Shown piece after piece: positions 3,002-57,746 of a DNA stretch of 64,000 bases. The position numbers were made by a program, and so were the translations under genes. The DNA lies in sequence record PP886230, one strand, 5' to 3'. The DNA is from Escherichia phage vB_EcoM_E9.1. Numbering within the stretch: position 1 is the first letter of the stretch; every line of letters starts with the position of its first letter. The notes below the pieces were generated by a model. The model was not told where the DNA came from. It saw only the letters and a program-made list of their open reading frames with translations, and did no database searches.

Positions 3002-3043
3002 GATTGTCTCCAAAATAAATCGGGTATATCTTTATTTACCTTG

Positions 3044-3071
3044 TAGACAAACCGTAAGAATGTGATATAAT
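3044..3071 (+). promoter_or_regulatory. early sigma70-like promoter (TAGACA-N16-TGaTATAAT)
   Basis: TAGACA 3044-3049, 16-nt spacer, TGn-TATAAT 3063-3071; member of a recurring promoter family in this window. Confidence 0.5.
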
Positions 3072-3111
3072 GTTTATTAATTAGAGTGACGTGAATCACA
3101 TAGGAGAATAC

Positions 3112-5400
3112 ATGAATCTTACTCAATTGTTCAAAAAAAGCGACGAACTGGCAACATCTCTAGGTCATACATTCTTGACTATTGACCACGTAAGTGCCAC
3201 AGTACTGACTATTGATAGCATCAAGAACGTATTTGAAGATATGAACATTGATGCAGACAAACTGCACAACCGCCTGATGAACTATCTTAAAAATACAACA
3301 GTTCCACATGCACCAAAAAGTGTTAAAGATGAAGACGCGAATCGAACTTCACTTCTAGTGAATCGCGTTGTACATGAGCTTTCTAAAAAATCAGTTATTG
3401 AACAACTAAAAAGTGATGATTTTTCGATTGATGCATATTTTGTTCTATTCGAATGTCTGTCTTTCCCTAACACAGCACTAGAAGCTGCGTTAAAAGAAGA
3501 AGGTGTTAGCTGTACTGAAGCTGCACGTGCATTACAGAAACACGTTGAGTCACTTGATAAGGGTATCAACTTACAAAGTATTAATGACGAACCGATTGGA
3601 GATAAAAAAGTGGCCCAACAGCAGCAATCATCTAAACAAAAAGGTTTGGAAGACTATACAACGAATCTAACTGCTCTTGCAAAAGAAGGCAAACTAGATC
3701 CTATGATTGGTCGCCAGAAAGAATTGTCTGCATTGATTGAGACTCTTGCTCGCAAAACCAAAAAGAATGCTATTCTCACTGGTGAAGCTGGTGTAGGTAA
3801 AACACAAATCATCGACGGGCTTGCACAAGCTATTGCTGATGGTAACGTACCTGAACACCTGAAAGACGTTGAAATTCTTTCACTAAATGTTGGTGCATTG
3901 ACTGCTGGTACTAAGTATCGTGGTGAATTTGAAGAACGCATCGACAATTTGCTAAAAGAACTAAAGAAACGTGAAAATACTATTGTTTTCATTGATGAAA
4001 TTCATATTATGGTTGGGGCTGGTTCCGCAAGTAATGGTTCTATGGACATGAGCAATATGCTTAAGCCAGCACTTTCACGTGGTGAGATTCGTGTAATTGG
4101 TGCAACAACATATGATGAATATCGTAAAAATATCGAGAAAGATAGTGCATTAACTCGTCGTTTTATGAAAATTGACGTAGTTGAGCCGACAATTGATGAA
4201 ACTCGTGCAATTGTTAATGGTTTGAAACCAACGTATGAAAAATTCCATAATGTTGAGTTCACATCTGATGCAATGGATGCTGTAATTTCTCTCAGTGATA
4301 AATTCCTGAAGAATAAGCACTTCCCAGATAAAGCAATTGATCTAATGGATGCTGCTGCGGCTAAAGTTCGTTCACGTGACAACAATAGTAAGCTAATTAC
4401 TGCCAATTTGATTCAAGAAGTTGTTGCTGGTATTGCCAATTTGGATATCAACGTGGTTGCATGTACTGAAAGTGATCGTATGCGTAATCTACCAGATGCA
4501 CTACGCTCACGTGTATACGGTCAAGAGGAAGCTATTCAAAAATTAGTTGATAACGTGATGGTAGCTCGTGCAGGACTGCGTGACAAATCTAGTGTTCAGG
4601 GTGCATTTATGTTTGTTGGACCATCTGGTACTGGTAAAACAGAAATTACCAAAGCATTAGCAGACGCAACTGGTGCGGAACTCATTCGCTTTGATATGTC
4701 AGAATTTTCTCAAGAACATACTGTTTCTAAACTAATTGGTTCACCTCCAGGTTATGTTGGTCATGATTCTGGTAACGGTTTACTGTTGGATAAAATTGAG
4801 CAGTTCCCTAATGCAGTACTGTTACTTGATGAAATTGAAAAAGCAGATCGTAAAGTACTACTAACCTTCCTACAGGTTTTGGATGAAGGTCGTCTGACTG
4901 GTTCTCAAGGTAAAACTGTATATTTTAATAACGTAACTGTTATTATGACTACAAACCTTGGTGCGGCTGATTCAACAAAGCGTAGCATTGGTATGAGCGG
5001 TAGTGACACTGCACAGGACAAGGCAATTAAAGCATTCTTGCCACCAGAGTTTATTAACCGTATTGATAGTATCGTTACGTTTAAAGACCTAAGCAGTGAA
5101 GCTATTGACAGCATCATTGATAAGTTCATGGGTGGTTTGAATGAACAAGTCAAAGACCGTAATGTTAAAGTTACATTAACAAAAGCTGCACGTGAATGGC
5201 TTGCGAAAAATGGGGTAAAAGTTGGTATGGGTGCACGTCCAATGAAACGTACCATTGAACAAAACATTCGTGTGCCACTAGCTAAAGAAATGTTGTGTGG
5301 TTCACTTGTGAATGGTGGTAACATTACATTTGATGTTATTGATGGTAAAATCGGTATTAAGCCGAAACGTACCAAAGCTGTAGATAAAGCACTAGTATAA
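3112..5400 (+). CDS. ClpA-type two-domain AAA+ unfoldase (Clp_N repeats, D1 and D2 ATPase modules)
   Basis: Two Walker A motifs ([17 protein letters not shown]) with Walker B FIDEIH and LLLDEIEKA; no ClpB-like coiled-coil middle domain; KRSIGMSGS loop at the position of the E. coli ClpA IGL ClpP-docking loop. Track start is GTG at 3091; ATG at 3112 has an AGGAG SD. Confidence 0.85.
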
Positions 5401-5410
5401 AAAAAGAAAA

Positions 5411-5437
5411 GGAGAGCATATTGCTCTCCTTTTTTTA
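5411..5437. terminator. bidirectional intrinsic terminator between convergent genes
   Basis: GGAGAGC-atatt-GCTCTCC hairpin flanked by an A-run on the 5' side and a T-run on the 3' side. Confidence 0.7.
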
Positions 5438-8400
5438 TTACTTAACTAATAATATATTTTTAATATCATTACCACTAACTTGTAGACTATCAGTGTATAC
5501 TGAAAGATCTATAGTGTAACTATTTTGTGTGTAACGTTTTAACATATCATAATTACCTAAATTAATTCCATTGAAAGAATATGTAGTATTAAGTTTAAAA
5601 TCATGTTCTGCACTATACATTACACCACGGAGTAAATTATTTGCATTTCTAACTTCAACTTTTTCATATCCAATCGATATAATATCATTCATGTTTGCGG
5701 CTGAACCGGATAAAACATTATTTCTAATACTATAAGGACTTATTGATTTAGGTTGAGAAACATAGGTTGTATTTTCTTCACTAATGGTTGTGATGTTAGT
5801 AACAGTACCACCAACAACACCGATATACATACCGTCAACCATTGGGAATCCATAAACCCATATCCCTTCATTATTTCTAAACGGTTGAATAACACTTGAA
5901 TCATATTCGATAACGTTGATTTCTAAACTATCAGTCATTTTAGTTCTTGCCAATTCACTAAGAACTCCCGCACCCGTAATTGGTAAGTTATAACCGTTAT
6001 CGATAGTAATTCCATCAACATCAAATATTTCATTAGAGATTATCCAAACGTCAACGTCATCTGGTGTTATTCCGTCATTGTACTTACCACCATTTAAAGT
6101 AGTATCGTAGAAAACATCATAATTAATTACATCAATGGTGTAATTTCTATTTTGTTCATACAATTTAATACCATTCTTGACAAATTCAGGGTCAGCAAAT
6201 GTTCTAACACGAACAATGTTCAATGCTAGAGGCTGTACTGGCTCATTTTGTTGTGCAAGAGTGATGTTATCATAACGGAGAACTGCACCAGTACTCTCAT
6301 CAATCAATTCAATCGTTTCCTTACCTGTATTTCTTACAGTGAATAGGATCGGAGTTGTATTGTTTTTGATGTTAGATACACGCAAGATTGTTTCCCATGT
6401 GTGATTTTGATATCTCACAAAATCTTCACCATCAGGAGTGAAAATCATCACCTTATCACCATCAGATAGGTCATTGTCAACTATTTCTGCTTCAGTTAAG
6501 CTATTAATAGATCTCACACGATAGAAATATTTTTCATCAAACTTCGATGTTGTTTTATTAATATCATTTTCAATCTTAGCATATGAAGGAATACTTACAA
6601 TTGCTTCTGTATGTTTATATGGATTGATAATTGCCATACCTTCAGTTTGATATCTGCTGTTATCACGTAATTGTACAAGAGATACATTGTCAAACCCATA
6701 TCCATCAACTGTAAATCTAATTTGACCTACATCACGCCCAGAAGGGTTTATGTCAGATATATCCACAATATAAGGATCAACTTCATCATCTTTAACTTCC
6801 CATTTTATTGAAGAAGTTTGAGATTCCAATGCTAGGTTATCAAATGCATTCATATCATTGAAGTACTTAGCTTCAGTAATACTATCAAGTATATATTGAT
6901 AATCAGAATACATTGGATTATTTTGATCTAGTGGTAAATCATCAAGATTTATTTCAGCTAGTTCAACCATTTCACCATTTGTGATAAAATAATCTTCCAT
7001 GAAATCATCAATACTTTGTTCATCAGGTATACTTTGATATACACCGTTAACATTTAAGTAAACATATTTTCGTGGAATCATTGTAATTGCATAGATATCA
7101 ATTGGGGTCTTACTAAGAATCTCTTCAGCTTTTTCGTACTTATCAGTAGCGTCTTTGTCGAATAACCCTCTCATACCTGCTAATACGTGAATAGCATCAG
7201 TATAGAAACGGGTATCACCACCTACTTCATCATAACGATAAACATATACACCATACTCAACTTCAAGTTTAACTTTTACTTCATAGTCTGATGCGTCAGG
7301 ATTTTTATCTTTAATTAATGAAATGTATTTTTGATACAATTCACTGCTTATTTCAAAATATCCATAGTTATAATCATTACTAGAAGAAAAGCCTAATGGA
7401 AGTCTAGTACTAGGATTGTCATTATAAGTAAGTCCACTAAATCCACATCCAACTTCATCGTGAATTTTCTCATCACTTATATCTTTATAAAGTTTCAAAC
7501 GGTTTGCCAATGTGTTATACTGAACATATTGTCTAAGGTCAGTAAACATATCGTTATGCGTTGATTCTTTATAAACACGTTCCAATGTAGCAGTGAATTC
7601 ATCAGTTGCTTCTAAATCTTCCGCATGGTCTTTATACCACTGGTTAACGCCATATGCTGTTCCTAGTGTTACATCCAATTCTGGATAGTAGATTTGCATT
7701 TGATAAGCAATAAGAAGATCGAAAGTTTCTTCACTATATTCTGGGAAAGAATATATATAACGTTGTAATTCATAGTTACTAACAGCATCCTTTTCATTGG
7801 ATTGATATTTGTTATTAACACTTACTAATTCATTTATGCTTGCCAAATCTTCATTTGGTTTACACTGAATATTATCATAATGCATAATAATATCAATTTC
7901 TTGGAATCTTCTATTTGGTGTAACGAAATCACTTGGTAGTGAACCTACCTGTTCCCATTTTTGGGTAATTTCATTAAATTGAGCGTACTCATAATCCCAA
8001 ATATCTTTTTCAGTTTTGATCCAATAACCATCAACGAAAATATATCCATTAGGATCTAAATCATTACATAGACCTTTTATTAAATCATCATCAGATGTCT
8101 TTTGCTCTATTTGTGAACGAATTTTAGTTCTATAAGGTTTAACTTCTTCAAAATATTCAACAATTTGATTAATCAAATTATCGTTTGAATAGTTTTGAAC
8201 TAATGATTGTTCCAAACCAACAATATAGATATATGATGTTTTAAATACCCAATCCACAACACTTTGTTCAACATGTACATATTTGACCATATCAAAAACA
8301 ATTTCGCTTTGATGTAAATCGAAAGAATTTTTGAGTAAAGCTAGTGCTTTACGAACGTTGATTTCACGATTGCTTAGTGAACCATTATCATTATGAACAC

Positions 8401-11400
8401 TATAATCTGCGTAAAGCATATCATTGAGTTCAACTGTACTGTTTTCACGACCAATCGCTTTCCAATAAATTGAATCGCGTGATTGTGATTTAATATACAA
8501 TGTCCAAATGTTTTCACTATCGGTAACTCTGATAATATCGCCAACTTGGTAGTTTTTAGTATTAGCATCTTCTAAGCTTGACTCTTGAGTATAAGTCGTG
8601 TTACTATCATATCCAACATCATACCAATCAGCATATGACCAGTACTGAGTCATGTCTAATGAGGTTCCTAGTGATTCAACATAATCAGATTGTTTAATCA
8701 TTTTATGTTGTCCCTCACCTTTGTTTTCTAACGTTATAGTAACAACACTACCCGCGTTTGCTGGACTATTCATTAACTGAATATATCCATTTTCGTCGAA
8801 GTGAATAAAATAAACAGCACTAGAAGTTAATGGATTTGGTAGATATCCACTAGTACTTAAAATAACAGCGTCATTTTCTTTAAATTTATCACTTTCAACT
8901 GCAATAACTAATTCATTATTGTAAGACAACACACGGAAAGAAACTTCATTAGGGTTAACTTCAGTGGTTTTAACATTAAACACATCTTCCATAACAACAC
9001 TATTAGTGGTTATGTTTTGTGATCTATAATAATTATTAGCACTTTCTACAAAGTTTCTACGAGCTTCTATAACATTTTGGAACCAAGTTTTGTTTGATCC
9101 TAAACCGTTATCAACATCTGGATATAATAAATTAATCACAGAACCTGATTCAGTAGTTTCTTGTCCAATTAAAGAATTCCACATTGAATCCCAAATTAGA
9201 GGGTTAAAGTTATAACTATCACCTTCCTTGCATAGTTGGTACTGATCATGTTTAACAACTTCAGTATTATCCATGTAATAAGAAATTGTCAAAATACTAG
9301 TATCATCATTAACTTTAAACTGCATATTACTAAGAATAAACGAGTTTTCATTGATTGGTGCAAACCAAGGAATGTTTAACTGTGATGGATCTTTAATAAT
9401 ACGAGCAATATCAGTACATGATTTTGTTCTGGTATGTAGTGGTGGTACATAAATGGTATCACGTACCCAGAAGTAGTATTTTGTAACATAAGTATCAGTT
9501 GAGCTATCATATTCCAAAAATGTACTATAGTTATCTTCAAGAGCGGTTCCGCTTGGTAGATACATAGTATTATTTTTGTTTTTCTTAGCAACGTCTTTAC
9601 AATACTTATCCCAATTATATGGCTCTACTGGAGAACAAACCCATTCCAACACATCAATGGTACTATGTGGTAATAAACGACCCCAGTTATAACGTTTGTA
9701 TTCATTAGTTGCATCAATATCAACGTTTCCGTCTGCATCATAAATTGCACGTGTATAATCCAAATAAAATGCAGTACTTGTATTCCACCATACTTGACCA
9801 ACTTTATCAGCACCCCAAGCCTGAATTAATTCACCATTGCTATTATATTGTGCTGGGTCTATTGGTGACGTATAAGTTACGTTTTGCATTGCTGCACCAG
9901 GAATAACCCCATTGATAGGGTCATACACATTTAGATATAATGCAGTAATGTTAGTACGTTCATCATATGTAGTTGGACGGTCAAAAAAAGTACTTTGTGG
10001 TGCTTTGTAACTATACTTTTTGTCAATATATGCTTGACGCTCTTCTGCACTGGCAAAACGTGATACATAACGATACAAACGTGGACGTGTATCTGGATCA
10101 GTAAATTCAATATCAATAGAAGTGTCAAATGGAACTACCATAACTTTAGGATCAGAACCAGCAGTATAATATTGACTTTCTACTGTTAAAGTATCTGGCA
10201 TAAAGTTAGTTTCATCAACAAAATAATAATAATCACCATCTTCAAGTGGTACATTATCAGTTAAAGTTACTTTACAAAATTGTTCAGCATACACATCGGT
10301 ATTTTCAATAGGTGTTATAGAAACCATTTGTACATTAGTATCAACTAATTCAAAAATATTCCATAAACCATTTCCGTCTTTAAACATCCAAACAGATTCA
10401 GGGTTTTCACCTTTACCATTAGTGTAAGTTATACGGTCATTATATGCAGTACTGAAATCTTTTGTAGTGTAAGATACTTCATCCAATGTTACTGGACCAA
10501 TATCTGGAAGTTGAATGTTTTCACTTCTTCCACTACGCATCGGGAATGAGAACTTACCATTTGGACGTGTAATCCAACGAGGATCTTTACCTTGTTCGCC
10601 GAAGTATACAATATTGTTTCCATTTCCATTTGAAGTAGCGTTTACATCAAAAGATACCATTTGTGGTTGTTGTTTAAATTGGTCATTGATTAGTTTAAAT
10701 TGAAGGTTTTTCTTACCATCAATATTACCATATGTACCAATTTTAAATGCCCATTCTTGTAATGCTTTATATTCATCAGTGTCATATGATTTAGAAACAC
10801 GAAGTACACGTTCTAAAACTTGGTTAGTACCTTTATCGTGAATGAATCCTTTATAGAAATCAACACGACTAACATCACTACTAATCATACGCTGTAGATA
10901 ATCACGAGATTGATAACCAATCAAATGGTTTGACAACTCTTGTAATTGTACATCACTTACTGGAGTTTCACTATCATAATAATGTTGGAAATCCGACACT
11001 AATTTTTCAAATGATGGTAGTGTTCCAGCTTCCAAGATAATAAATCCAGGAGCTTGTAGGCGACCAGTCCATGAACCAGTAATATATCCATACATTTTAA
11101 TTAGTTCTTGAATAGAACCATATGTTGGCTGATAAATGTAATCACCAAAAATAGTTTTATCATCAAAAATAACAGCATGTTCATATGAACACAAACTTAA
11201 ACGAATCAATGCAATGCGTTTATTAGATTCTAAAGTTCTAACAGTGAAGATATTTCCAATACGAGAAGTTTCAATTTCATATTGGCGAATACCTTGGTTA
11301 TTATCATCAAGTAATGACCATACACCACCATTATTTTGCGTAATAGATTGTACTGAACCAAAGTCTGCCCCAAATTTAGCGTTTGCAGAACTTGGGGTAC

Positions 11401-14400
11401 AAGAAATAAATTCACCAGTTACTAGAGAATTCTGACTCCAGATCACGAAATCTTTAGCAATAGTGTTCCAATCTTGTTGAGCACCACTATCATTTACATC
11501 TTCAAAAATCCAACCATGTTCTTTAAGATATTCACCATATCCACAAATAAAAGTATAAACTTCTTGGTAACTATTGAAAACTTTACCATATTCAATTGAA
11601 GCTTCAGACTTCCATTCATTATAATGAACAACATTACGGTTTTCCAATTTAAGAGTTACTTTTCTACCATTTTTTACGGGAAGTTTATATTTAAATTTAG
11701 CACCAACTAGATCATATCCATCAATCTGATATGCACTACCATTCCAAGTAATTTTGATCGCACTCATTTGCTCATCACGGATATTATTAGAACGAACAAG
11801 ACCAATGGTTTGGTTTTCTTGTGAAATAAGACCGAAAGATTTAGCATTGAATGTTAGCTGATCTGCTTTAGTAAATCCTCCAATTTTATGACCAACATTT
11901 ATATAAGAAGAACGAACTACATCCCCATACTTGGTGGTAATATTTTTATTTTGATACATCAAATGGTCACTTACAAACATTTGATAACCAATGGTTCTTG
12001 TGCTATTTTCACCATGAACTACTGTATTTTTATCAAAATTAATACGCTTACGTGTATCACCATAAAGGAATTGTGAACCATCAGTGAATACTTCTTTTAA
12101 GTTATCATTGCGGGTATCCCAGAAATAGTTAGCAAATTGTGCTGGTTTAGCTTTATACAAAAGCATCATTTGGTCATATGCAAACAATGTAGTGTTCATG
12201 TATGTAAATTCCATGTCACCCATATCACCATATGTCCAAGGTTCTGCTCTATGATTTAAAGATCCAGACACTAAACCTAAAATTTCAGGTGCAATATATT
12301 CAACCACACAAATATCAATACCAGAAGATGTTTTATTTCCAGTTTTTGTAATTTTGAATGGCTGTACACCAAATCTTTTATATTTGTCATATTGACCACG
12401 ACGATCACCAAATAAAATAGTTCCAGTACTGCTATCTCCAATAGTTCCGTCAATATCCCAAAGACCACTAGGAACTAAATCACCTTGCTCATTCATAACA
12501 AGTGCTTCATATACATATACAACATCACTATCACGTTCACCAACTTGAACAGCCGTTGGTTCGTATTCTTGGTTCCACCAAGTTGGACGTTGTGTAAAGC
12601 CAAACATTTCCCACGGATGGGTAGCTGGGCGATATGTACCATATTGGTCAGTGTAAATGGCACGCCATGAACCACGTGCAGGAATTTCAGTACTTTGGCC
12701 ATTAACTACATAATAAGTGCCAGTATAGTTCCAAGTTCTCCAATTGTTAGGATCATAATCATGTGTACTATTACTGATACCATTAGTTGCGGTGAAGTTA
12801 ATGTATCCACGTAGTAATAATGTTTGTTTCTCTTCAGCACTATATTCAGTTTTAGTGAAATATGGTGTAGGGAAAAGGTCATCACTATTCAATACTGGTA
12901 CGTAATCAACATCTTTGAATTTATTATCAATACTATTAAAAATTCTATTTTCTAATTCATATACAACATCATCCATTTTATCAACACCATTGATAACACG
13001 GTATGCTTTGGAAATAATACCAGTATGACTGATGTTATAACAGCTTGGTTTACTACCAGCAGTGAGGAATGTCGCTTTTTCTGGTACATATGCTTGAAGA
13101 ATACCTAAGAACTGTGGTGTTGGTGGTATAAATGCACGAATGAATCCAGAAGTACTTCCAACATTATCATAATAGAATGGGAATGAACTATCACGTCCCA
13201 TATTAATAGTAGTTAAAATTGCATCAACAATGTTTGCAGCACTATTTTGTAAAAAGTCTGATGGATTTTCATCATACATACGAAGCATTTGTGTATTAAA
13301 TTTATTAATGAATCTAAAATATTCAGATTGCATAAACATAGTTGCTTCAAACAAATCAATATCTTCATTTGCAGTATGTGCCATCAATGGAAGCATAGAT
13401 GCTTCATTTTGGATAATTTTAGTACCTACGCCATTATTAACCAATCCTTTAGCCAAACGTTCTTCATAGTCATTGAAATCATCAGAAGAACCACGTGTAA
13501 TGTTCTTTTGAATAATATCCTGAAAATGTAAAGTGTAGTCACCTTGGTTAATGTATATAATATTAGAATTATATGGGTTATTTTGTAGGTTGATTGGAAC
13601 TTCATATGCACCTAATTCTTTATTAGGAGTTACAGTACTGCTATAAGTTCTGATTTGAATAACAGAATCTTCATCCAATTCTACAGTACTATCTAGAGTG
13701 ATGCTTTGTACTTGACCTTTTGAAACATTTTTGGTATATTTGGACACATCAACACCATCAACCACAACTTCAATAATATCAGAGTCATTATCTAAAACTT
13801 TTTGTGCCAATTCGAATGTATGGTCATATTTTACAATCTGAACACCATCACCAGTAATTGGATGCCAATCTAGATAAGTTTCTCGGTCAGCTTTATAGTA
13901 CTGATATGTTCTATCAACTTCAATAACATATGCATACATACCATCAACTGGTTCTTTAAAAACTTCCATATCATAAACAGTACTGAATACACGATACATA
14001 TCAGTACGTTGGACTTGTGGAGTTTGTTTTACAAATTGTTTAGAGTACTCTTCTGAACGAACCCAATCGGTTTGAAGATTCATTTCATTATTTTCATCAA
14101 TAATGTTATAATAGTATAAACCATCAATTTCAACTTCTTTTCCAAGATGGTCATAGGTATAACGTTGGGATTGTAAAAAGTTTTCATAAATGTAATAATT
14201 ATAATCACCAAGTTCAATGTTATATCCATATACACTATCAGTTGCATAGTTGTAATTTATTTTAAAACCAAACAACTCTGAACCTTTAAAGTTACTTGAT
14301 GGATATGTAGTACTGTTGTCAAGTTTGATACCATTACGATCATAAAGTTGGAATTTAGGGAATACGTTAACACTAGTTTTTGATTGTGCACGAACCCACA

Positions 14401-15409
14401 AAGATCCATTCCAGTACATAGAACTATTACCATACTCATTACCTTTAGTGATTAGAACAACATCACCATCTTGTGGTTCACCACTTGGGCGTGATTCGGT
14501 TTCTTCTTCTGGATCTAGTGCTAAACCATAAACACGAGTACCATCTTGCATTTTTTTCACATATACATTATAAATTCTATTGTTTTCACCATTGTTACCA
14601 ATACTGGTGAATAGAATACGCATTCCATCTTGCGGAATAATACCATCAATACGTATACCACTATTAATATCTTTTTGAACGATATCTTCAGGTTTAATAA
14701 TATCAGAGAACAGATCAACAGTTCCACGGAATTTTGTACCGTAGTTAATTAGCTCAATATTTTTATTATATTCAATAATTGGTGCACGTGCACGAATAAA
14801 ACGTGAATCTTGCATTAATTCTTCAGTTAATATTGAGCCATCTTCTAATGTTTCACCTAAAGTATACCAAAAGTTTTGTAGTGACCATGTATTACCATTA
14901 AGTGCTCCACGTTCCATTACAATGTAATCAGGTGAAGTAATATTATAAGAGTTTTTAGTATCCCAAAGATATGAGCTAAAATTGTTCATTTTATTTGGGT
15001 TAATAGCTGGAGTCCATGCATAAAACTTACCGTTGAACAAACGGCTTTCATTATCGGTTAGTGCTCCATAATGATTCATGTATCCAACTAGATCATCATA
15101 AAATTGAATTGAACGAATTGTCGAATCATCATTTTTTGAGACGTAAGCAGTGGACAACTGATAAAGTTGACGTGCTACAGTACTTTCATGTAAGAAGATA
15201 TTACCAGCAGCGGCAGGAGAACCCATATCACCAATATAGCCGTCAACTAATTCGTTTTCAGCCGGATTAAACCATTGTTGAATAACATCATCACTGACTT
15301 TTTGAATATCTTCTAAGCCTTGCATCCACTCAGGCAATCTTTTAATAAAAAGCTTCTTCTGTACTGCTTCAGCCATCTGTGTAGGTTGAAACTTAAAATT
15401 ATTAGTCAT
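5438..15409 (-). CDS. giant virion protein, about 3320 aa; possibly a baseplate/fibre protein in the gp7 position
   Basis: Uninterrupted 10-kb ORF directly downstream of the gp6-like gene. The second ATG (15409) has a GGAG SD; the first ATG (15439) does not. No catalytic motif recognised. Confidence 0.7.
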   Translation of the reverse strand: MTNNFKFQPTQMAEAVQKKLFIKRLPEWMQGLEDIQKVSDDVIQQWFNPAENELVDGYIGDMGSPAAAGNIFLHESTVARQLYQLSTAYVSKNDDSTIRSIQFYDDLVGYMNHYGALTDNESRLFNGKFYAWTPAINPNKMNNFSSYLWDTKNSYNITSPDYIVMERGALNGNTWSLQNFWYTLGETLEDGSILTEELMQDSRFIRARAPIIEYNKNIELINYGTKFRGTVDLFSDIIKPEDIVQKDINSGIRIDGIIPQDGMRILFTSIGNNGENNRIYNVYVKKMQDGTRVYGLALDPEEETESRPSGEPQDGDVVLITKGNEYGNSSMYWNGSLWVRAQSKTSVNVFPKFQLYDRNGIKLDNSTTYPSSNFKGSELFGFKINYNYATDSVYGYNIELGDYNYYIYENFLQSQRYTYDHLGKEVEIDGLYYYNIIDENNEMNLQTDWVRSEEYSKQFVKQTPQVQRTDMYRVFSTVYDMEVFKEPVDGMYAYVIEVDRTYQYYKADRETYLDWHPITGDGVQIVKYDHTFELAQKVLDNDSDIIEVVVDGVDVSKYTKNVSKGQVQSITLDSTVELDEDSVIQIRTYSSTVTPNKELGAYEVPINLQNNPYNSNIIYINQGDYTLHFQDIIQKNITRGSSDDFNDYEERLAKGLVNNGVGTKIIQNEASMLPLMAHTANEDIDLFEATMFMQSEYFRFINKFNTQMLRMYDENPSDFLQNSAANIVDAILTTINMGRDSSFPFYYDNVGSTSGFIRAFIPPTPQFLGILQAYVPEKATFLTAGSKPSCYNISHTGIISKAYRVINGVDKMDDVVYELENRIFNSIDNKFKDVDYVPVLNSDDLFPTPYFTKTEYSAEEKQTLLLRGYINFTATNGISNSTHDYDPNNWRTWNYTGTYYVVNGQSTEIPARGSWRAIYTDQYGTYRPATHPWEMFGFTQRPTWWNQEYEPTAVQVGERDSDVVYVYEALVMNEQGDLVPSGLWDIDGTIGDSSTGTILFGDRRGQYDKYKRFGVQPFKITKTGNKTSSGIDICVVEYIAPEILGLVSGSLNHRAEPWTYGDMGDMEFTYMNTTLFAYDQMMLLYKAKPAQFANYFWDTRNDNLKEVFTDGSQFLYGDTRKRINFDKNTVVHGENSTRTIGYQMFVSDHLMYQNKNITTKYGDVVRSSYINVGHKIGGFTKADQLTFNAKSFGLISQENQTIGLVRSNNIRDEQMSAIKITWNGSAYQIDGYDLVGAKFKYKLPVKNGRKVTLKLENRNVVHYNEWKSEASIEYGKVFNSYQEVYTFICGYGEYLKEHGWIFEDVNDSGAQQDWNTIAKDFVIWSQNSLVTGEFISCTPSSANAKFGADFGSVQSITQNNGGVWSLLDDNNQGIRQYEIETSRIGNIFTVRTLESNKRIALIRLSLCSYEHAVIFDDKTIFGDYIYQPTYGSIQELIKMYGYITGSWTGRLQAPGFIILEAGTLPSFEKLVSDFQHYYDSETPVSDVQLQELSNHLIGYQSRDYLQRMISSDVSRVDFYKGFIHDKGTNQVLERVLRVSKSYDTDEYKALQEWAFKIGTYGNIDGKKNLQFKLINDQFKQQPQMVSFDVNATSNGNGNNIVYFGEQGKDPRWITRPNGKFSFPMRSGRSENIQLPDIGPVTLDEVSYTTKDFSTAYNDRITYTNGKGENPESVWMFKDGNGLWNIFELVDTNVQMVSITPIENTDVYAEQFCKVTLTDNVPLEDGDYYYFVDETNFMPDTLTVESQYYTAGSDPKVMVVPFDTSIDIEFTDPDTRPRLYRYVSRFASAEERQAYIDKKYSYKAPQSTFFDRPTTYDERTNITALYLNVYDPINGVIPGAAMQNVTYTSPIDPAQYNSNGELIQAWGADKVGQVWWNTSTAFYLDYTRAIYDADGNVDIDATNEYKRYNWGRLLPHSTIDVLEWVCSPVEPYNWDKYCKDVAKKNKNNTMYLPSGTALEDNYSTFLEYDSSTDTYVTKYYFWVRDTIYVPPLHTRTKSCTDIARIIKDPSQLNIPWFAPINENSFILSNMQFKVNDDTSILTISYYMDNTEVVKHDQYQLCKEGDSYNFNPLIWDSMWNSLIGQETTESGSVINLLYPDVDNGLGSNKTWFQNVIEARRNFVESANNYYRSQNITTNSVVMEDVFNVKTTEVNPNEVSFRVLSYNNELVIAVESDKFKENDAVILSTSGYLPNPLTSSAVYFIHFDENGYIQLMNSPANAGSVVTITLENKGEGQHKMIKQSDYVESLGTSLDMTQYWSYADWYDVGYDSNTTYTQESSLEDANTKNYQVGDIIRVTDSENIWTLYIKSQSRDSIYWKAIGRENSTVELNDMLYADYSVHNDNGSLSNREINVRKALALLKNSFDLHQSEIVFDMVKYVHVEQSVVDWVFKTSYIYIVGLEQSLVQNYSNDNLINQIVEYFEEVKPYRTKIRSQIEQKTSDDDLIKGLCNDLDPNGYIFVDGYWIKTEKDIWDYEYAQFNEITQKWEQVGSLPSDFVTPNRRFQEIDIIMHYDNIQCKPNEDLASINELVSVNNKYQSNEKDAVSNYELQRYIYSFPEYSEETFDLLIAYQMQIYYPELDVTLGTAYGVNQWYKDHAEDLEATDEFTATLERVYKESTHNDMFTDLRQYVQYNTLANRLKLYKDISDEKIHDEVGCGFSGLTYNDNPSTRLPLGFSSSNDYNYGYFEISSELYQKYISLIKDKNPDASDYEVKVKLEVEYGVYVYRYDEVGGDTRFYTDAIHVLAGMRGLFDKDATDKYEKAEEILSKTPIDIYAITMIPRKYVYLNVNGVYQSIPDEQSIDDFMEDYFITNGEMVELAEINLDDLPLDQNNPMYSDYQYILDSITEAKYFNDMNAFDNLALESQTSSIKWEVKDDEVDPYIVDISDINPSGRDVGQIRFTVDGYGFDNVSLVQLRDNSRYQTEGMAIINPYKHTEAIVSIPSYAKIENDINKTTSKFDEKYFYRVRSINSLTEAEIVDNDLSDGDKVMIFTPDGEDFVRYQNHTWETILRVSNIKNNTTPILFTVRNTGKETIELIDESTGAVLRYDNITLAQQNEPVQPLALNIVRVRTFADPEFVKNGIKLYEQNRNYTIDVINYDVFYDTTLNGGKYNDGITPDDVDVWIISNEIFDVDGITIDNGYNLPITGAGVLSELARTKMTDSLEINVIEYDSSVIQPFRNNEGIWVYGFPMVDGMYIGVVGGTVTNITTISEENTTYVSQPKSISPYSIRNNVLSGSAANMNDIISIGYEKVEVRNANNLLRGVMYSAEHDFKLNTTYSFNGINLGNYDMLKRYTQNSYTIDLSVYTDSLQVSGNDIKNILLVK

Positions 15410-15455
15410 TTTTGGACTCCATATAATTCGTTCATTCATTTGATTTATTTATGAT

Positions 15456-18950: not shown

Positions 18951-19015
18951 AATTTATTCCTTTAAATCAGTAAAGTACTAGTTCAGTACTGGGAATTATA
19001 TATAGAAATATTTAT

Positions 19016-19046
19016 TCAAAAAGAAAAGCACTCCGAAGAGTGCTTT
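19016..19046 (-). terminator. intrinsic terminator with UUCG tetraloop
   Basis: On the minus strand AAGCACTC-uucg-GAGTGCTT followed by a U-rich run. Confidence 0.6.
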
Positions 19047-19051
19047 TGTAA

Positions 19052-19987: not shown

Positions 19988-22651
19988 TTATTGACATGCC
20001 TCTAAACGACGAGCCATTAACTCAGCACGGCGAGTAGTTTGGCGATACCAAGCTGAATTACGTATTTGAGCAGCAGCTTGTTTATAATTACCTTTAGCTA
20101 ATTCAGACAACATAGTTTTAAATTTAAGTACCCCACCTTTACCCATCTGGAATACCATTTGGCATAGTACTTGTTGAGCCAAATAAGGTGTTTTCATGTT
20201 GTATGAAGCATAAATTGATTTAGCATCATATATAGCTTTACTACTATCACGAACTAACATATCGTTGGCTTGCTGTTCAGTTATTCCATCTGAAAAGTTT
20301 TCACCACTAATAATTAAGTGACCATAACCAATAGTTGGATACCCACGACTATCCAAATAACGCCAGAATTTACCATTACGATAATATCCTTTTGCTTGTT
20401 GGTATTGTAATGTACCTTCATATTCTTTTAATTCAGAAATAAATTGTGCATCACCTGGAACAACTTTCCAATCGATTGCAGTTTTATCAACATTTCCAAT
20501 ATTATAGGTAGGTTGCTCCACCGGAGTTGTTGAAGCTCCACTTCTCTGTGTTCTTCTCCTACGAGGCACATGACGAGAACCACGTTGAGAATATCCAGTA
20601 CCTATCGTTTTGATTTTTGTTGTAACTACCAATTCATCACTATCAACTGAAGGTTGTACAACTGCTTTTGGAGCAGATTGATTAGTTGCTTGACCACCAA
20701 TTAATGTTTTATTCGCCGCATCAGACCCTGTTCCTGTTTGTGAAGCATAAAATAATCCTGGGTCAACAGAACCACTGAATCCAAGAACATTTGCTGATGT
20801 AACACGAATTTCAAACTGTATGACACCATTTGCTTTTCCAACAACTTGACCTTTTTGAACAACATCTTTGTTTAATAAATCAGATTGAATATTATAAAAA
20901 ATAGATTTATATCCAGACTTATGTTGTATTAAAAGAGCACCATTAGTAATTACTACCACACCACCATCTGGTGCAACTACATCACCTTTACATTGTATTT
21001 CCCAACCTGAACGGTCTGCCTTTCCTCCACTTTGTGTTGGAACACCTTTCCCCCAGTAACCATATTGTCGAATAGTGCCGCTACATGGCATTAACATATG
21101 TAAACCTTCATATGTAATACTATATCCAGTCATCCCAGGATCAGATGTCATCAAATCTTGTGATTGAACTTGTTCAGTTTCTGATGTATAGTTAACAAAC
21201 TGAACAGCTTCAGTGTCTTGTGCTACGGGTAATTCTGGTGATACATCATTTGCTGGTTGTGGTTGTACTGGTGATTCACTAGAACCACTTCCACCACCTT
21301 GTCTTGGTGGTTCAACATAACTACCATGATTTTCAGCGTTAACCCATGCAGCAATATCATGAATGTGTTCATTAAGACCAGCAGATGGTGTTCTAAAGTT
21401 TGGTGCAGTAAATTCAGCAGTACCGCTATTACCACCACTATTAACTGTTAATGTTTGACCACCACCACTAATAATTGCTGATGATGATCCAATTAGGTTT
21501 GCAGATGTTGCGGCAGAAATAGAAGCATTTGAACCAGCCGTAATATCAGTACTGCTACCACTTTGCATACGTAATGATGCAGCAGTAACTAAACGAAGGT
21601 CTGCCCCAGAATTAACAACAACTTGTCCACCAACTTTTGCATCAAGAGCACCAATTAGATCTAATTTAGTATTTGCACCAACTCGTGCATTGAAATCTTG
21701 TCCGGTTTCAATATTATATGAACGTCCAGCAGTAATATTAATATCTTGACCAGCACGAATATTAATATTCTTATCACAGTGCATGTCAATATCACCTTCA
21801 CCAGTGAATTTTATACGTGCAGTGCCATCACGGTTAATTAAAAGAACATCACCAGTAGCTTCTGATAAAAGAAGTTGTGCACCACTACGTGTTTTTATTA
21901 CGACACCTTCATTTTTACGAGAACCAACACGTGTATCGTTTACTGGGTTATTAAATTGTGTATCTTGATATCCATCTGGGTCTTGATCCCACGTTGGTGC
22001 TGTTAATTCCTCTTCAGTATATCCATCATCAATAATAAAACTATTACCACGTGGCGAAGACATACCATATACAGTACTGGTGGTTTGTCGAGTACTACTA
22101 CGATTCGCCAACCCAGCTTCTTCGTCATATAAAAGGTTTTGCTTTTTAAGACCTGCGATAATTGGAACGTTAGCATATTTGTCTTGCATATCGGTAGTGA
22201 TAGTGTTACGATCATAGTCAGTAACAGGAAGTGGCATATCAGTTCCACCATAATTACTTACTTCAGTTGCCATACCTGGAACCATAGTATTCATACGCTG
22301 GTCATATACACAACCAATCCAATATGCTTGGAATGTACGGGCTTGTGCAAAAATTACAACAACTGTACACCCTACGTCTGGTGGTACTGCCCAAAAACCG
22401 TATCCTTTTGGATATTGACCATATGCATCAGCACTTGGAATACCTGGTGTTTTACCAGCAAAAGGAGACATGTAAGATGCTTCTATCCATGATTCTTTTG
22501 AGTTTTTATCACTTTGAGAACCTTGTATCCAAACTTTCAGTTTTCCTGATTTAGTTGGATCTCTGTTATCCATAACAGTTGCTAACTGCGGATAAGATGG
22601 GTCAAAACGACCCAACTGCTGTTGTGCATACTTTTTACTTGTATCTGCCAT
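19988..22651 (-). CDS. 5: gp5-like baseplate central spike with C-terminal T4-lysozyme domain, 887 aa
   Basis: N-terminal OB-like region, central Gly/Ser/Thr/Asn-rich repeats suggestive of a beta-helix, a lysostaphin-like stretch lacking the HxH motif, and a C-terminal domain about 55-60% identical by eye to the adjacent standalone lysozyme. Confidence 0.7.
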   Translation of the reverse strand: MADTSKKYAQQQLGRFDPSYPQLATVMDNRDPTKSGKLKVWIQGSQSDKNSKESWIEASYMSPFAGKTPGIPSADAYGQYPKGYGFWAVPPDVGCTVVVIFAQARTFQAYWIGCVYDQRMNTMVPGMATEVSNYGGTDMPLPVTDYDRNTITTDMQDKYANVPIIAGLKKQNLLYDEEAGLANRSSTRQTTSTVYGMSSPRGNSFIIDDGYTEEELTAPTWDQDPDGYQDTQFNNPVNDTRVGSRKNEGVVIKTRSGAQLLLSEATGDVLLINRDGTARIKFTGEGDIDMHCDKNINIRAGQDINITAGRSYNIETGQDFNARVGANTKLDLIGALDAKVGGQVVVNSGADLRLVTAASLRMQSGSSTDITAGSNASISAATSANLIGSSSAIISGGGQTLTVNSGGNSGTAEFTAPNFRTPSAGLNEHIHDIAAWVNAENHGSYVEPPRQGGGSGSSESPVQPQPANDVSPELPVAQDTEAVQFVNYTSETEQVQSQDLMTSDPGMTGYSITYEGLHMLMPCSGTIRQYGYWGKGVPTQSGGKADRSGWEIQCKGDVVAPDGGVVVITNGALLIQHKSGYKSIFYNIQSDLLNKDVVQKGQVVGKANGVIQFEIRVTSANVLGFSGSVDPGLFYASQTGTGSDAANKTLIGGQATNQSAPKAVVQPSVDSDELVVTTKIKTIGTGYSQRGSRHVPRRRRTQRSGASTTPVEQPTYNIGNVDKTAIDWKVVPGDAQFISELKEYEGTLQYQQAKGYYRNGKFWRYLDSRGYPTIGYGHLIISGENFSDGITEQQANDMLVRDSSKAIYDAKSIYASYNMKTPYLAQQVLCQMVFQMGKGGVLKFKTMLSELAKGNYKQAAAQIRNSAWYRQTTRRAELMARRLEACQ

Positions 22652-34843: not shown

Positions 34844-34854
34844 GGACGAAAATA

Positions 34855-36594: not shown

Positions 36595-36667
36595 ACATAA
36601 ATAACAGTGTATAAGAATGAGGGTTTATTTTTACCCTCATTTATAATGCATATTTCAAGGAGATCAA

Positions 36668-36895
36668 ATGTTAAAGGACATCTTTGAATCTAGCAGTGAT
36701 TCAATGTACGACCCTGAAGATGATCAGAACGTATATAAAATTACTGATTCCAGAAAACCGAAACTAACATTACAAGTATTAAACAACTTAAGAAAGTACC
36801 GTGAATTTAAAGCACATGAAGAACAACGCCGCAAAAATGTGGTTGCAGTTGTTTATGCCGCTACACCAACTGGTGACGGTTCTGGGTTAATGTAA
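36668..36895 (+). CDS. small prohead-core-like protein, 75 aa
   Basis: Position between portal and protease matches T4 gp67; no motif verified. Confidence 0.4.
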   Translation: MLKDIFESSSDSMYDPEDDQNVYKITDSRKPKLTLQVLNNLRKYREFKAHEEQRRKNVVAVVYAATPTGDGSGLM

Positions 36896-36996
36896 ATCAA
36901 AAATCGCACTTTTTAAAGCTTTTAAAAAAGGCGATTTTATTCAGTACTAAATAATATCATACTTTATACGAATGTAATATATCTATGGAGGATATA

Positions 36997-37845: not shown

Positions 37846-37865
37846 ATATCTGAAAGGAGATCATT

Positions 37866-38489
37866 ATGAGTAGTATGATTCGTGAATGGTCTTCATTCAA
37901 TGATTCTAAAGTTGTTTTGGAACATCGTGATAATGGATTTGGTGGGCGTGACTGCTATCTTCGTGGTATTGCTATTCAAGCCGACCAACGAAATTTGAAC
38001 GAGAGAATTTACCCTTTATCTGAAATTACAAGGGCAGTAAATAACATGAACCAGCGTTTAGCTAAAGGTGAAAGCATTCTTGTTGAATGTGACCATCCAG
38101 AAACACTAACTATTAACCTAGACCGAGTAGCAGCAATGATTACTAAGGTTTGGATGGAAGGTGCTAATGGTATGGCAGAAATCAAACTACTTGATACTGC
38201 ACATGGTCAAAATATCCGTAAAATGCTAGAGGCTGGTGTAAAACTTGGTGTAAGTTCTCGCGGTTCCGGTAACGTTGATTATAATGGAATAGTTTCTGAT
38301 TTTGAAATTATCACTATTGATATTGTTGCTCAACCTAGTGCTCCAGAAGCATACCCAACAGCGGTATTTGAATCTCTGATGAGTAAGTACGGATCACCTT
38401 GTAATAGTTCTAAAAAAATCACTGAATCTAAAAAAGTAAATAATTTAGATTCTGAAATATACGATTTTTTCAAGAAATTAAAAGGTTAA
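37866..38489 (+). CDS. 21: prohead protease, gp21-like
   Basis: NERIYP, ECDHPE, KLGVSSRGSGNV and IVAQPSAPEAY match the T4 gp21 pattern as recalled. Confidence 0.7.
   Translation: MSSMIREWSSFNDSKVVLEHRDNGFGGRDCYLRGIAIQADQRNLNERIYPLSEITRAVNNMNQRLAKGESILVECDHPETLTINLDRVAAMITKVWMEGANGMAEIKLLDTAHGQNIRKMLEAGVKLGVSSRGSGNVDYNGIVSDFEIITIDIVAQPSAPEAYPTAVFESLMSKYGSPCNSSKKITESKKVNNLDSEIYDFFKKLKG

Positions 38490-52422: not shown

Positions 52423-57746
<5,324 letters not shown>

What the first reader, a model, noticed from the sequence alone, without database searches (positions are those of the whole stretch)
3044..5437. Phage-encoded ClpA-type unfoldase with a ClpP-docking loop, inserted antisense in the baseplate module
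The 763-769-aa protein has the full ClpA architecture (Clp_N repeats, two AAA+ modules, no ClpB coiled-coil M domain) and keeps a KRSIGMSGS loop where E. coli ClpA has its IGL ClpP-docking loop. No ClpP gene is visible in the window, so the protein may pair with the host protease. The gene is a self-contained early cassette (own promoter 3044-3071, bidirectional terminator 5411-5437) on the opposite strand to the surrounding late structural genes, which looks like an acquired accessory gene. A phage unfoldase could redirect host proteolysis (host takeover or removal of defence proteins) or remodel virion assembly intermediates.
Basis: partly seen in the sequence, partly recalled or inferred. 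Interest (0 to 1): 0.65.

Follow-up and report, generated by a model that had tools for sequence, protein, structure and literature searches.

The report
Jumbo-phage ClpA unfoldase, with own ClpP
The gene is a real, intact ClpA-type protein unfoldase of a 121Q/RaK2-like jumbo coliphage. It is already annotated and is an old core gene, and the phage encodes its own ClpP protease and ClpS-like adaptor outside the window, so pairing with the host protease is not the simplest reading.

Summary
Window 3112-5400 (+) encodes a 762-aa ClpA-architecture AAA+ unfoldase, flanked by its own promoter (3044-3071) and a hairpin terminator (5407-5433). Its IGM tripeptide (aa 626-628) aligns without gaps to E. 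coli ClpA IGL.

The interpretation needs correcting on three points.
- The window is about 99.9% identical to Escherichia phage 121Q/SP27. The gene is annotated "ClpA-like" in dozens of records, belongs to PHROG 4871, and is mentioned in two papers.
- It is not a recent insertion. The same gene order and antisense orientation recur in RaK2, CBB and XaC1 (75-54% identity), and the clade is only about 40-48% identical to its nearest other relatives.
- "No ClpP" reflects only what the window covers. The 121Q genome encodes a genuine ClpP (gene 464) and a ClpS-like adaptor (gene 48). All three genes co-occur in about 70 phage records, and clpA and clpP carry the same promoter type as the replication genes.

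Family-wide, the docking tripeptide is unusually variable (19% canonical against 85% in the nearest other ClpA-like proteins). The phage ClpP pocket has also lost two conserved residues.

The most likely reading is a phage-autonomous ClpA-ClpP(-ClpS) protease. Docking and substrates are untested. Interest is modest.

The parts
3044..3071 (+). Promoter of clpA: TAGACA, a 16-nt spacer, then an extended -10 (TGaTATAAT). It belongs to the phage promoter class [AG]GA[CT]A-N13-TGnTATAAT.
   Evidence: 11 of 12 consensus matches plus TG; the same motif lies upstream of other + strand genes in the window; 21 unique sites in the 121Q-type genome, all on one strand, including upstream of ssb, primase, exonuclease, topoisomerase and the phage clpP; promoter-like elements at the same place in RaK2, CBB and XaC1.
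3103..3107 (+). Shine-Dalgarno sequence AGGAG, 4 nt before the ATG at 3112.
   Evidence: Read directly from the sequence.
3112..5400 (+). clpA-like CDS, 762 aa plus stop. An in-frame GTG at 3091 would give 769 aa but has no ribosome-binding site.
   Evidence: Also annotated in 121Q gene 581 and phAPEC6 gp246c.
3112..3561 (+). N-terminal domain (aa 1-150), a divergent Clp_N-type helical domain.
   Evidence: Pfam Clp_N repeat 1 at aa 11-59, 24.2 bits. phmmer aligns it to the ClpA N-domain from residue 17. The AF2 model is all-helical with pLDDT 50-87. This is the least conserved domain of the clade (0.59).
3652..4431 (+). D1 AAA+ module (about aa 181-440). Motifs: Walker A GEAGVGKT (K230), Walker B DE (D295/E296), pore loop K268-Y269-R270, Arg fingers R349/R350.
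   Evidence: These residues are invariant in 115 of 115 clade members, except Y269 (104 Y, 11 F) and K268 (114 K, 1 R).
4432..5334 (+). D2 AAA+ module plus the D2-small domain (about aa 441-741). Motifs: Walker A GPSGTGKT (K509), Walker B D573/E574, pore loop G547-Y548-V549-G550, Arg finger R650, sensor-2 R709.
   Evidence: Foldseek superposes D1-D2 on E. coli ClpA chains with target-normalised TM-score 0.81-0.87 and 47-48% identity.
4963..5022 (+). Segment homologous to the ClpA IGL helix-loop-helix (aa 618-637). The tripeptide I626-G627-M628 is at nt 4987-4995.
   Evidence: Ungapped alignment to ClpA 609-628. pLDDT is below 50 at aa 624-630, i.e. a flexible loop. It is the most variable part of D2 in the clade (0.59 against 0.84). 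Tripeptide spectrum.
5407..5433 (.). Bidirectional intrinsic terminator shared with the convergent giant virion-protein gene: hairpin GGAGAGC-loop-GCTCTCC flanked by an A-run and a T-run.
   Evidence: dG -20 and -16.9 kcal/mol; 0 of 200 shuffles fold as well; the hairpin is kept through compensatory stem changes in RaK2, CBB, XaC1 and L005.

Best explanation
The gene encodes the unfoldase subunit of a Clp protease system that the phage itself encodes.

Shown:
- It is a catalytically intact, double-ring ClpA-type AAA+ protein.
- It is conserved as a core gene of RaK2/121Q-like jumbo phages.
- It is monocistronic and preceded by the same promoter type as the phage's replication genes and the phage's own clpP.
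- It is absent from the virion proteome of a 99.7%-identical phage.
- The same genomes always carry a ClpP-family peptidase with an intact Ser-His-Asp triad and N-terminal axial-loop motif, plus a ClpS-like protein.

Inferred:
- Hexamers of this protein bind substrates, possibly handed over by the ClpS-like adaptor through the N-domain.
- They unfold and translocate substrates with the conserved pore-loop tyrosines.
- They feed substrates into a ClpP tetradecamer, docking through the aa 618-637 loop, whose tip is I-G-M.
- The preferred peptidase partner is the phage ClpP rather than host ClpP.
- The interface appears to have diverged on both sides, to a Met-rich tripeptide of the form hydrophobic-(G/S/N)-hydrophobic and a ClpP pocket lacking the conserved aromatic at position 82 and Leu114.

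The substrates (host proteins, early phage proteins or misfolded phage proteins) are unknown.
For: Architecture and active sites:
- Domain calls and ClpA alignments.
- Walker A/B, Arg fingers, sensor residues and the D2 pore Tyr are invariant in 115 of 115 clade members.

Core-gene status:
- About 70 phage records carry it at 60% identity or more.
- Synteny is identical in 121Q, RaK2, CBB and XaC1.
- It matches PHROG 4871 at 1035 bits.

Phage ClpP (121Q gene 464):
- PF00574, 141 bits, full length. It scores 155 bits on a cellular ClpP model against 51 bits on the ClpP-related head-protease model.
- 35.6% identity to E. coli ClpP; it is the only ClpP-type gene tblastn finds in the genome.
- The catalytic triad is invariant in 76 of 76.
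- The head-maturation role is already filled by an S77 (T4 gp21-like) protease at window 37866-38489.

Co-occurrence in phage records: ClpA about 70, ClpP about 69, ClpS-like 71, all in the same host genera.

Shared promoter class upstream of clpA (121Q position 298190) and clpP (214303), and of ssb, primase, exonuclease and topoisomerase. CBB authors linked the equivalent class to DNA-synthesis genes (PMC5259590).

Not a virion protein: phAPEC6 gp246c is missing from the 62 proteins found by mass spectrometry, while its neighbours gp245 and gp248 are present.

Docking loop retained. In the clade the first position is hydrophobic in 112 of 115, the centre is Gly in 96 of 115, and the third position is bulky hydrophobic in 98 of 115 (counted). 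That is more order than drift would leave.
Against: - No physical or functional test of docking exists. I found no experimental paper on this system.
- The tripeptide is canonical in only 22 of 115 clade members, and 19 lack the central Gly.
- In ClpX, even I268L and F270L severely weaken ClpP binding (PMC7112951). A drifting loop could therefore mean that docking has been lost in part of the family.
- In eight genome-matched ClpA/ClpP pairs I saw no simple residue-by-residue covariation between tripeptide and pocket.
- The gene scores below NCBIfam's ClpA equivalog cut-offs (754.7 against 993; 654.6 against 1350).
- clpA and clpP lie about 84 kb apart and are not in one operon.
- The ClpS-like protein is very divergent (24.7 bits). 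Only some N-degron pocket residues are kept: D35 and T38 are kept, while N34D, D36P, M40A and H66N differ.
Confidence: 0.55

Rival explanations
1. The phage ClpA docks on the host E. coli ClpP through its IGM loop and redirects host proteolysis, for host takeover or removal of defence proteins.
For: - The IGM tripeptide sits exactly where ClpA has IGL. Met is a hydrophobic residue of similar size.
- IGM also occurs in 2 of the 137 aligned sequences of the nearest-ClpA representative set; one of those two is the window protein itself, and phage-clade representatives are included in the set.
- Host ClpP is abundant at the time of infection.
- The non-late promoter fits a takeover role.
Against: - The premise 'no ClpP' is false for the genome. 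A phage ClpP is conserved together with clpA and carries the same promoter type.
- The fourth contact residue of the E. coli loop (I620) is Ser in the phage, and H621 and Q622 are Gly and Ser.
- Conservative changes in the ClpX loop already cripple binding to E. coli ClpP.
- Relatives infecting similar enterobacterial hosts carry IGA, IGG, MNM or MSM at this position. That variation is hard to reconcile with a conserved host pocket.
Confidence: 0.2
2. The protein works without any peptidase, as an unfoldase or chaperone for virion morphogenesis. For example, it could handle the adjacent 3333-aa virion protein or tail/baseplate intermediates. This follows the suggestion Iyer et al. made for jumbo-phage ClpA and ClpX.
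For: - The position between the roughly 500-aa virion protein and the giant virion protein, within the tail/baseplate block, is conserved over large evolutionary distance.
- The PA5oct ClpA homologue also sits among structural genes, next to a DnaJ-like gene.
- The docking loop is the least constrained part of D2 and is often non-canonical.
- The suggestion appears in PMC7824862.
Against: - The promoter class is that of replication genes, not the late ATAAATA class used by structural genes.
- Conserved gene order is normal in T4-like structural modules and does not by itself imply function.
- A hydrophobic-G-hydrophobic pattern is still kept in most members.
- A dedicated ClpP and a ClpS-like adaptor co-occur with it. 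The only known role of ClpS is delivery of substrates to ClpAP.
Confidence: 0.2
3. The gene is a decaying or functionless remnant of a captured bacterial clpA.
For: It scores below the NCBIfam equivalog cut-offs and has a divergent N-domain.
Against: - The ORF is intact in all records.
- Every catalytic and pore-loop residue is invariant across 115 cluster representatives spanning 54-100% identity.
- The promoter and terminator are conserved.
Confidence: 0.02

Closest known systems
E. coli ClpA (the ClpAP protease unfoldase; PDB 1KSF/1R6B, 6W1Z, 7UIV)
   Same: - Same length class (762 against 758 aa) and same domain order: N-domain, D1, D2, D2-small.
- No M-domain.
- All ATPase and pore-loop motifs are present.
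- A loop with a hydrophobic-G-hydrophobic tip sits at the IGL position.
- 47-48% identity over D1-D2 and 39% over the full length.
   Different: - IGM-S-G-S replaces IGL-I-H-Q at the loop tip.
- The N-domain is very divergent; only one Clp_N repeat is detectable.
- It scores below the ClpA equivalog cut-offs.
- It belongs to a separate phage-only clade.
- Its likely partners are phage-encoded rather than cellular.
ClpA-like proteins of RaK2-like jumbo phages (PHROG 4871; 121Q gp581, RaK2 ORF069, CBB gp235, GAP32, phAPEC6 gp246c)
   Same: This is the same gene. It is 99.9-100% identical at the protein level to 121Q-group records including SP27, slurp01 and SHEFM2K, with the same neighbours, promoter and terminator.
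   Different: Nothing material. Public records give only a name and no functional data.
Clp gene sets of other jumbo phages (Agrobacterium phage Atu_ph07; Pseudomonas phage PA5oct)
   Same: These phages also encode ClpA-like and ClpP-like proteins, and Atu_ph07 also ClpS, ClpX and ClpB. ClpA lies next to a DnaJ-like gene and structural genes.
   Different: Only 33-41% identity, with a different gene neighbourhood. These are separate lineages.
ClpB/Hsp104 and ClpC
   Same: They share the double AAA+ Hsp100 core, which aligns at 495-512 bits.
   Different: ClpB and ClpC carry a coiled-coil M-domain inserted in D1, which is absent here. ClpB also lacks the ClpP-docking tripeptide.

Membership tests
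ClpA (Hsp100 class I, ClpP-associated unfoldase) | Two AAA+ modules with functional Walker A/B motifs, arginine fingers, sensor residues and pore-loop aromatic residues | tested here: met
   The residues are invariant across 115 clade members.
ClpA (Hsp100 class I, ClpP-associated unfoldase) | N-terminal double Clp_N repeat domain | tested here: inconclusive
   Repeat 1 passes Pfam gathering (24.2 against 20.7 bits). Repeat 2 is not detected. The alignment to the ClpA N-domain and the helical AF2 model support the fold, but pLDDT is only 50-66 for aa 61-110.
ClpA (Hsp100 class I, ClpP-associated unfoldase) | No coiled-coil M-domain between D1 and D2 | tested here: met
   One continuous alignment to ClpA 20-734. 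ClpB, ClpC and Hsp104 align in two stretches. The NCBIfam ClpB model also matches in two stretches.
ClpA (Hsp100 class I, ClpP-associated unfoldase) | ClpP-docking loop with a [LIV]-G-[FL] tripeptide | tested here: inconclusive
   The loop is present and correctly aligned, but its tip is I-G-M. The motif is canonical in 22 of 115 phage-clade members, against 116 of the 137 aligned sequences in the nearest-ClpA representative set.
ClpA (Hsp100 class I, ClpP-associated unfoldase) | Score above the curated equivalog cut-off (TIGR02639 / NF008263) | tested here: not met
   754.7 against 993.15 bits, and 654.6 against 1350 bits. ClpA is still the best-scoring model (ClpB scores 634, ClpV 548).
ClpA (Hsp100 class I, ClpP-associated unfoldase) | Physical complex with ClpP and ATP-dependent degradation; binding of ClpS to the N-domain | not testable with these tools
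   This needs biochemistry or multimer modelling. The only supporting data are co-occurrence and shared promoter type.
PHROG 4871 (phage 'ATP-dependent protease' ClpA-like family) | Full-length profile match | tested here: met
   1035 bits, covering aa 2-756 against profile positions 11-761 of 764.
ClpB/Hsp104 disaggregases | M-domain coiled coil; no ClpP-docking tripeptide | tested here: not met
   No M-domain insertion. A hydrophobic-G-hydrophobic tip is present.
ClpP peptidase (the partner encoded outside the window, 121Q gene 464) | Full-length CLP_protease fold, Ser97-His122-Asp171 triad, N-terminal axial-loop motif | tested here: met
   PF00574 at 141 bits over profile positions 2-179 of 182. 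The triad is invariant in 76 of 76. The motif IPYVVEK corresponds to E. coli VPMVIEQ.
ClpP peptidase (the partner encoded outside the window, 121Q gene 464) | Conserved hydrophobic docking pocket (E. coli L48, F49, Y60, Y62, F82, I90, M92, F112, L114, L189) | tested here: not met
   Position 82 is Y or F in 40 of 44 non-clade sequences but N/S/Q/G/C in the phage clade. Position 114 is L in 41 of 44 non-clade sequences but G in 63 of 76 phage sequences. Y62 is mostly kept. The alignment at positions 189-192 is ambiguous, so no claim is made about R192.

The most novel reading that the evidence does not exclude
RaK2/121Q-like jumbo phages may run a private ClpA-ClpP-ClpS protease whose unfoldase-peptidase interface has been rewired on both sides. 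On the unfoldase side the tripeptide is Met-rich, of the form hydrophobic-(G/S/N)-hydrophobic. On the peptidase side the pocket lacks the conserved aromatic at position 82 and Leu114, and ClpP carries a conserved C-terminal extension of about 25 aa. Such a system would be insulated from host ClpX, ClpA and ClpP. It would give the phage a degradation channel that host partners cannot titrate or regulate.
Probability: 0.25. Interest if true: 0.6.

Novelty: already known. Interest (0 to 1): 0.3.

Why it matters
As given, the finding is a correct re-discovery of an annotated gene, so it adds little. Viewed across the whole genome, a conserved three-gene Clp set (unfoldase, peptidase, adaptor) is a core feature of a large group of enterobacterial jumbo phages, and nobody appears to have characterised it.

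If the phage ClpAP pair really has a diverged docking interface, two things follow:
- It would be a natural example of an orthogonal AAA+ protease, useful for studying docking specificity and for engineering targeted degradation.
- Its substrates would show what a 350-kb phage needs to destroy during infection: host proteins, defence proteins, or its own early or misfolded proteins.

Tried and rejected
- **Recent horizontal capture from Enterobacteria.** Rejected. The nearest proteins outside the clade are only about 40-48% identical, and the clade spans 54-100% identity with fixed synteny.
- **The ClpP-like gene 464 is simply the head-maturation protease, as RefSeq labels it.** Rejected. It scores three times better on cellular ClpP models than on the ClpP-related head-protease model. 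A T4 gp21-type S77 prohead protease sits in the head module of the window.
- **Residue-level covariation between the ClpA tripeptide and the ClpP pocket.** No clear code emerged. For example, a canonical VGF loop pairs with an N82/T114 pocket. Only clade-level co-divergence is claimed.
- **Loss of ClpP Arg192.** First suggested by the MAFFT alignment. Withdrawn, because a one-residue shift aligns the phage motif G-x-R-N-E with E. coli H-R-N.
- **Other Hsp100 or ClpP paralogues in the genome.** tblastn finds none. Gene 473 is only a weak ClpP-like match with a signal-peptide-like N-terminus, and gene 475 only a weak HslV-like match.
- **Literature search for experiments on this system.** Six searches returned only genome descriptions and reviews.
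- **Pfam on the neighbouring 501-aa and 3333-aa proteins.** No domains found.
- **A proper phylogeny against ClpA, ClpB and ClpC.** Not built, because no tree software was available. Model and PDB bit scores served as a proxy.
Full report
**What is at the coordinates**

The window carries one long + strand ORF at 3091-5400. The credible start is ATG 3112, four bases after an AGGAG, giving 762 aa. GenBank records for identical phages annotate the same start.

Domain evidence:
- Pfam finds a D1 AAA domain, AAA_lid_9, a D2 AAA_2 domain and the ClpB_D2-small domain.
- The isolated N-terminus gives one Clp_N repeat just above gathering (24.2 against 20.7 bits). The second repeat is not detected.
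- Against the PDB, the best match is E. coli ClpA (E 2e-180), as one continuous alignment of residues 17-741 to ClpA 20-734. ClpC, ClpB and Hsp104 align in two pieces, as expected if the M-domain is absent.
- NCBIfam ranks ClpA first (754.7 bits, against ClpB 634 and ClpV 548), but below the curated equivalog cut-off of 993.
- An AlphaFold2 model (mean pLDDT 79.7) superposes on ClpA D1-D2 chains with target-normalised TM-score 0.81-0.87 at 47-48% identity.

Phage [11 protein letters not shown] aligns without gaps to ClpA ERKSIGLIHQD, so I626-G627-M628 (nt 4987-4995) corresponds to the ClpA I617-G618-L619 docking tripeptide. The model shows this segment as a low-confidence, flexible loop.

**Promoter and terminator**

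TAGACA-16-TGaTATAAT at 3044-3071 is an 11-of-12 sigma-70-type match with an extended -10. It belongs to a clear phage promoter class, [AG]GA[CT]A-N13-TGnTATAAT (consensus about GGGACAAAC-N10-TGnTATAATG).
- I found 21 unique copies in the assembled 121Q-type genome, all on one strand. My rough estimate is that fewer than one would be expected by chance.
- They lie upstream of ssb, primase, an exonuclease, topoisomerase II, a tRNA block and others.
- The authors of phage CBB described the equivalent class (a divergent RpoD-like promoter) as associated with DNA-synthesis genes. They described late structural genes as using an ATAAATA motif (PMC5259590).

The hairpin at 5407-5433 folds at -20 kcal/mol on the + strand and -16.9 on the - strand; none of 200 shuffles does as well. 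It is preserved through compensatory stem changes in RaK2, CBB, XaC1 and a metagenomic relative.

So the gene is a monocistronic, non-late cassette. "Early or middle" is an inference from promoter class, not a measurement.

**Where the window comes from, and what is already known**

The region is 99.9% identical to Escherichia phages 121Q and SP27, and at least 99.5% identical to about 20 records of the PBECO4/phAPEC6 group (Asteriusvirus).
- It matches PHROG 4871 at 1035 bits.
- Attai et al. state that ClpA is highly conserved in most RaK2-like phages (PMC6102473).
- Iyer et al. list ClpA among jumbo-phage AAA+ chaperones that might act as translocases or aid virion assembly. They also note phage ClpP and ClpS (PMC7824862).
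- I found no experimental work on the system.

**Not a recent insertion**

The gene order is NUDIX (-), T4 gp15-like sheath stabiliser (-), a roughly 500-aa virion protein (-), ClpA (+), a roughly 3330-aa virion protein (-), then gp6-like baseplate wedge (-).
- This order is identical in 121Q, RaK2 (75% ClpA identity), CBB (62%) and XaC1 (54%).
- The left half is kept in a metagenomic contig whose ClpA is only 45% identical.
- About 115 cluster representatives at 54-100% identity form the phage clade.
- Below it, scores drop to a flat field of ClpA-like proteins at roughly 40-48% identity.

The antisense orientation follows from the fact that every promoter of this class points the same way, while the flanking late genes run the other way.

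**The phage has its own ClpP and a ClpS-like protein**

I read the whole 121Q record.

Gene 464 (214364-215059):
- It is a full-length ClpP-family protein (PF00574, 141 bits).
- It scores 155 bits on a cellular ClpP model against 51 bits on the ClpP-related head-maturation model.
- It is 35.6% identical to E. coli ClpP and is the only ClpP-type gene tblastn detects in the genome.
- The Ser-His-Asp triad is invariant in 76 of 76 clade members. The N-terminal axial-loop motif is retained (IPYVVEK against VPMVIEQ).
- The window itself holds a T4 gp21-type S77 prohead protease between the portal and major capsid genes (37866-38489). The RefSeq label "head maturation protease" for gene 464 is therefore probably wrong.

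Gene 48 is a divergent ClpS-fold protein (PF02617, 24.7 against a 23-bit cut-off).

In the phage collection the three genes occur in essentially the same records and host genera: ClpA about 70 records at 60% identity or more, ClpP about 69, ClpS-like 71.

A promoter of the clpA class sits 33 nt upstream of the clpP start codon. The premise "no ClpP, hence host ClpP" therefore arises only from what the window covers.

**Is the protein active, and is it in the virion?**

In 115 clade members, both Walker A lysines, both Walker B Asp-Glu pairs, the D1 and D2 arginine fingers, sensor residues and the D2 pore tyrosine are invariant. The D1 pore aromatic is Y in 104 and F in 11. This is strong purifying selection on a working double-ring motor.

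In phAPEC6 (99.7% identical), the neighbouring giant protein gp245 (381.9 kDa) and gp248 were found in virions by mass spectrometry. gp246c (ClpA) was not among the 62 virion proteins.

**The docking interface**

The loop segment aa 618-637 is the least conserved part of D2 (0.59 against 0.84 mean column conservation).

| Tripeptide class | Phage clade (n = 115) |
|---|---|
| Canonical [LIVM]-G-[FL] | 22 (19%) |
| x-G-M | 44 |
| x-G-A/G/V/H | 28 |
| No central Gly (MSM, MNM and similar) | 19 |

In the comparison set of 137 aligned sequences (136 representatives at 50% clustering of the nearest ClpA-like proteins, plus the window protein itself), 116 (85%) are canonical. That set carries no names or annotation. 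I take it to be mostly cellular, and it includes a few phage-clade representatives.

The pattern is not random, though. The first position is hydrophobic in 112 of 115, and the third is bulky hydrophobic in 98 of 115.

- Phage ClpPs have replaced the aromatic at position 82 (Y or F in 40 of 44 non-clade sequences) by N/S/Q/G/C.
- They have replaced Leu114 (41 of 44 non-clade sequences) by Gly (63 of 76).
- Tyr62 is mostly kept.
- They carry a conserved C-terminal extension of about 25 aa.

For scale, in ClpX even I268L and F270L cause severe ClpP-binding defects (PMC7112951).

Both faces of the interface have therefore moved away from the cellular consensus at clade level. In eight genome-matched pairs I could not see a residue-by-residue code. 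An apparent loss of Arg192 came from a misplaced gap in the alignment, and I withdrew it.

**Interpretation**

The most likely reading (confidence 0.55) is that this is the unfoldase of a phage-encoded ClpA-ClpP(-ClpS) protease, expressed with the replication-phase genes.
- The motor, gene content, co-occurrence and promoter sharing are shown.
- Docking to the phage ClpP, adaptor hand-over and the substrates are inferred.

Rivals:
- Docking to host ClpP (0.2). This is not excluded and is not exclusive of the main reading.
- A peptidase-independent role in tail, baseplate or giant-protein morphogenesis (0.2), suggested by the very stable position among structural genes and the loose docking loop.
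- Decay into a functionless remnant, which is excluded by the conservation data.

**Verdict**

The gene is already known and annotated, so novelty is low.

The residual interest is that a conserved, uncharacterised three-gene Clp system with a non-canonical docking interface is a core feature of this jumbo-phage group. A private protease insulated from the host is possible (about 0.25) and is directly testable.

Noticed in passing
window 5438-15439 (-): A giant 3333-aa ORF converges on clpA and shares its terminator. It has no Pfam domain and matches PHROG 10938, 'virion structural protein'. It is conserved at about 3330 aa in RaK2, CBB and XaC1. It was detected in phAPEC6 virions as gp245, 381.9 kDa. 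Its function is unknown.
   Followed up: partly
window 3044, about 26018, about 30719, about 57644, about 57719 and about 62877 (+); a looser copy near 52423: A phage promoter class, consensus about GGGACAAAC-N10-TG(A/C)TATAATG, always on the + strand. There are 21 unique sites genome-wide, upstream of replication and recombination genes, tRNAs, clpA and clpP. The -35-like element is not TTGACA, so a phage factor may be involved.
   Followed up: partly
window about 3014-3044 (- strand), between clpA and the 497/501-aa virion-protein gene: On the minus strand, GGTAAATAAAG lies about 30 nt upstream of the neighbour's ATG (3001). It resembles the T4-type late motif (TATAAATA, or ATAAATA as reported for CBB). 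Similar GTATTTA elements occur at the same place in RaK2, CBB and XaC1. The intergenic region therefore seems to hold divergent promoters of two temporal classes.
   Followed up: no
outside the window: 121Q NC_025447 214364-215059 (L011:14364-15056): A genuine ClpP-family peptidase that RefSeq labels 'head maturation protease'. Its docking pocket is altered (positions 82 and 114) and it carries a conserved C-terminal extension, GPRNEEGKYLVKRRGGVEEWV. One peptide of the CBB orthologue was found in virions.
   Followed up: yes
outside the window: 121Q 34461-35006 and 35078-35623 (L007): A 181-aa ClpS-like protein with a roughly 70-aa N-terminal extension. It is followed by a KTSC-domain protein that is annotated 'DnaJ-like'. 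The ClpS-like gene is conserved in 71 phage records at 35-100% identity. Its N-degron pocket residues are only partly kept.
   Followed up: partly
outside the window: 121Q 218420-219028 and 219356-219952 (L011): Gene 473 is a weak ClpP/SppA-like match (16.7 bits, below cut-off) with a signal-peptide-like N-terminus (MKRLWLEVVQAVMLLMLINFPASAG). Gene 475 is a weak HslV-like match, and no HslU is evident.
   Followed up: no
window 34855-40938 (+): A T4-like head module: gp20-type portal (34855-36594), S77 prohead protease (37866-38489) and gp23-type major capsid protein (39763-40938).
   Followed up: yes
window 19988-22651 (-): An 886-aa baseplate hub/spike protein combining an OB-fold Phage_base_V domain, DUF2345 and a C-terminal phage lysozyme (T4 gp5-like). 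It corresponds to phAPEC6 gp241, which was found in virions.
   Followed up: partly
window about 18951-19051, compared with 121Q 314100-314864 (L001): 121Q carries an HNH endonuclease gene just after the baseplate-wedge gene, annotated as 'associated with group I intron'. The window appears to lack it. The window is about 950 bp shorter than 121Q between its two ends, and the sequences diverge at this point.
   Followed up: partly
outside the window: 121Q 117089-131255 (L009): A tandem array of about 14 RCC1-like genes on the minus strand, labelled 'regulator of chromosome condensation'.
   Followed up: no
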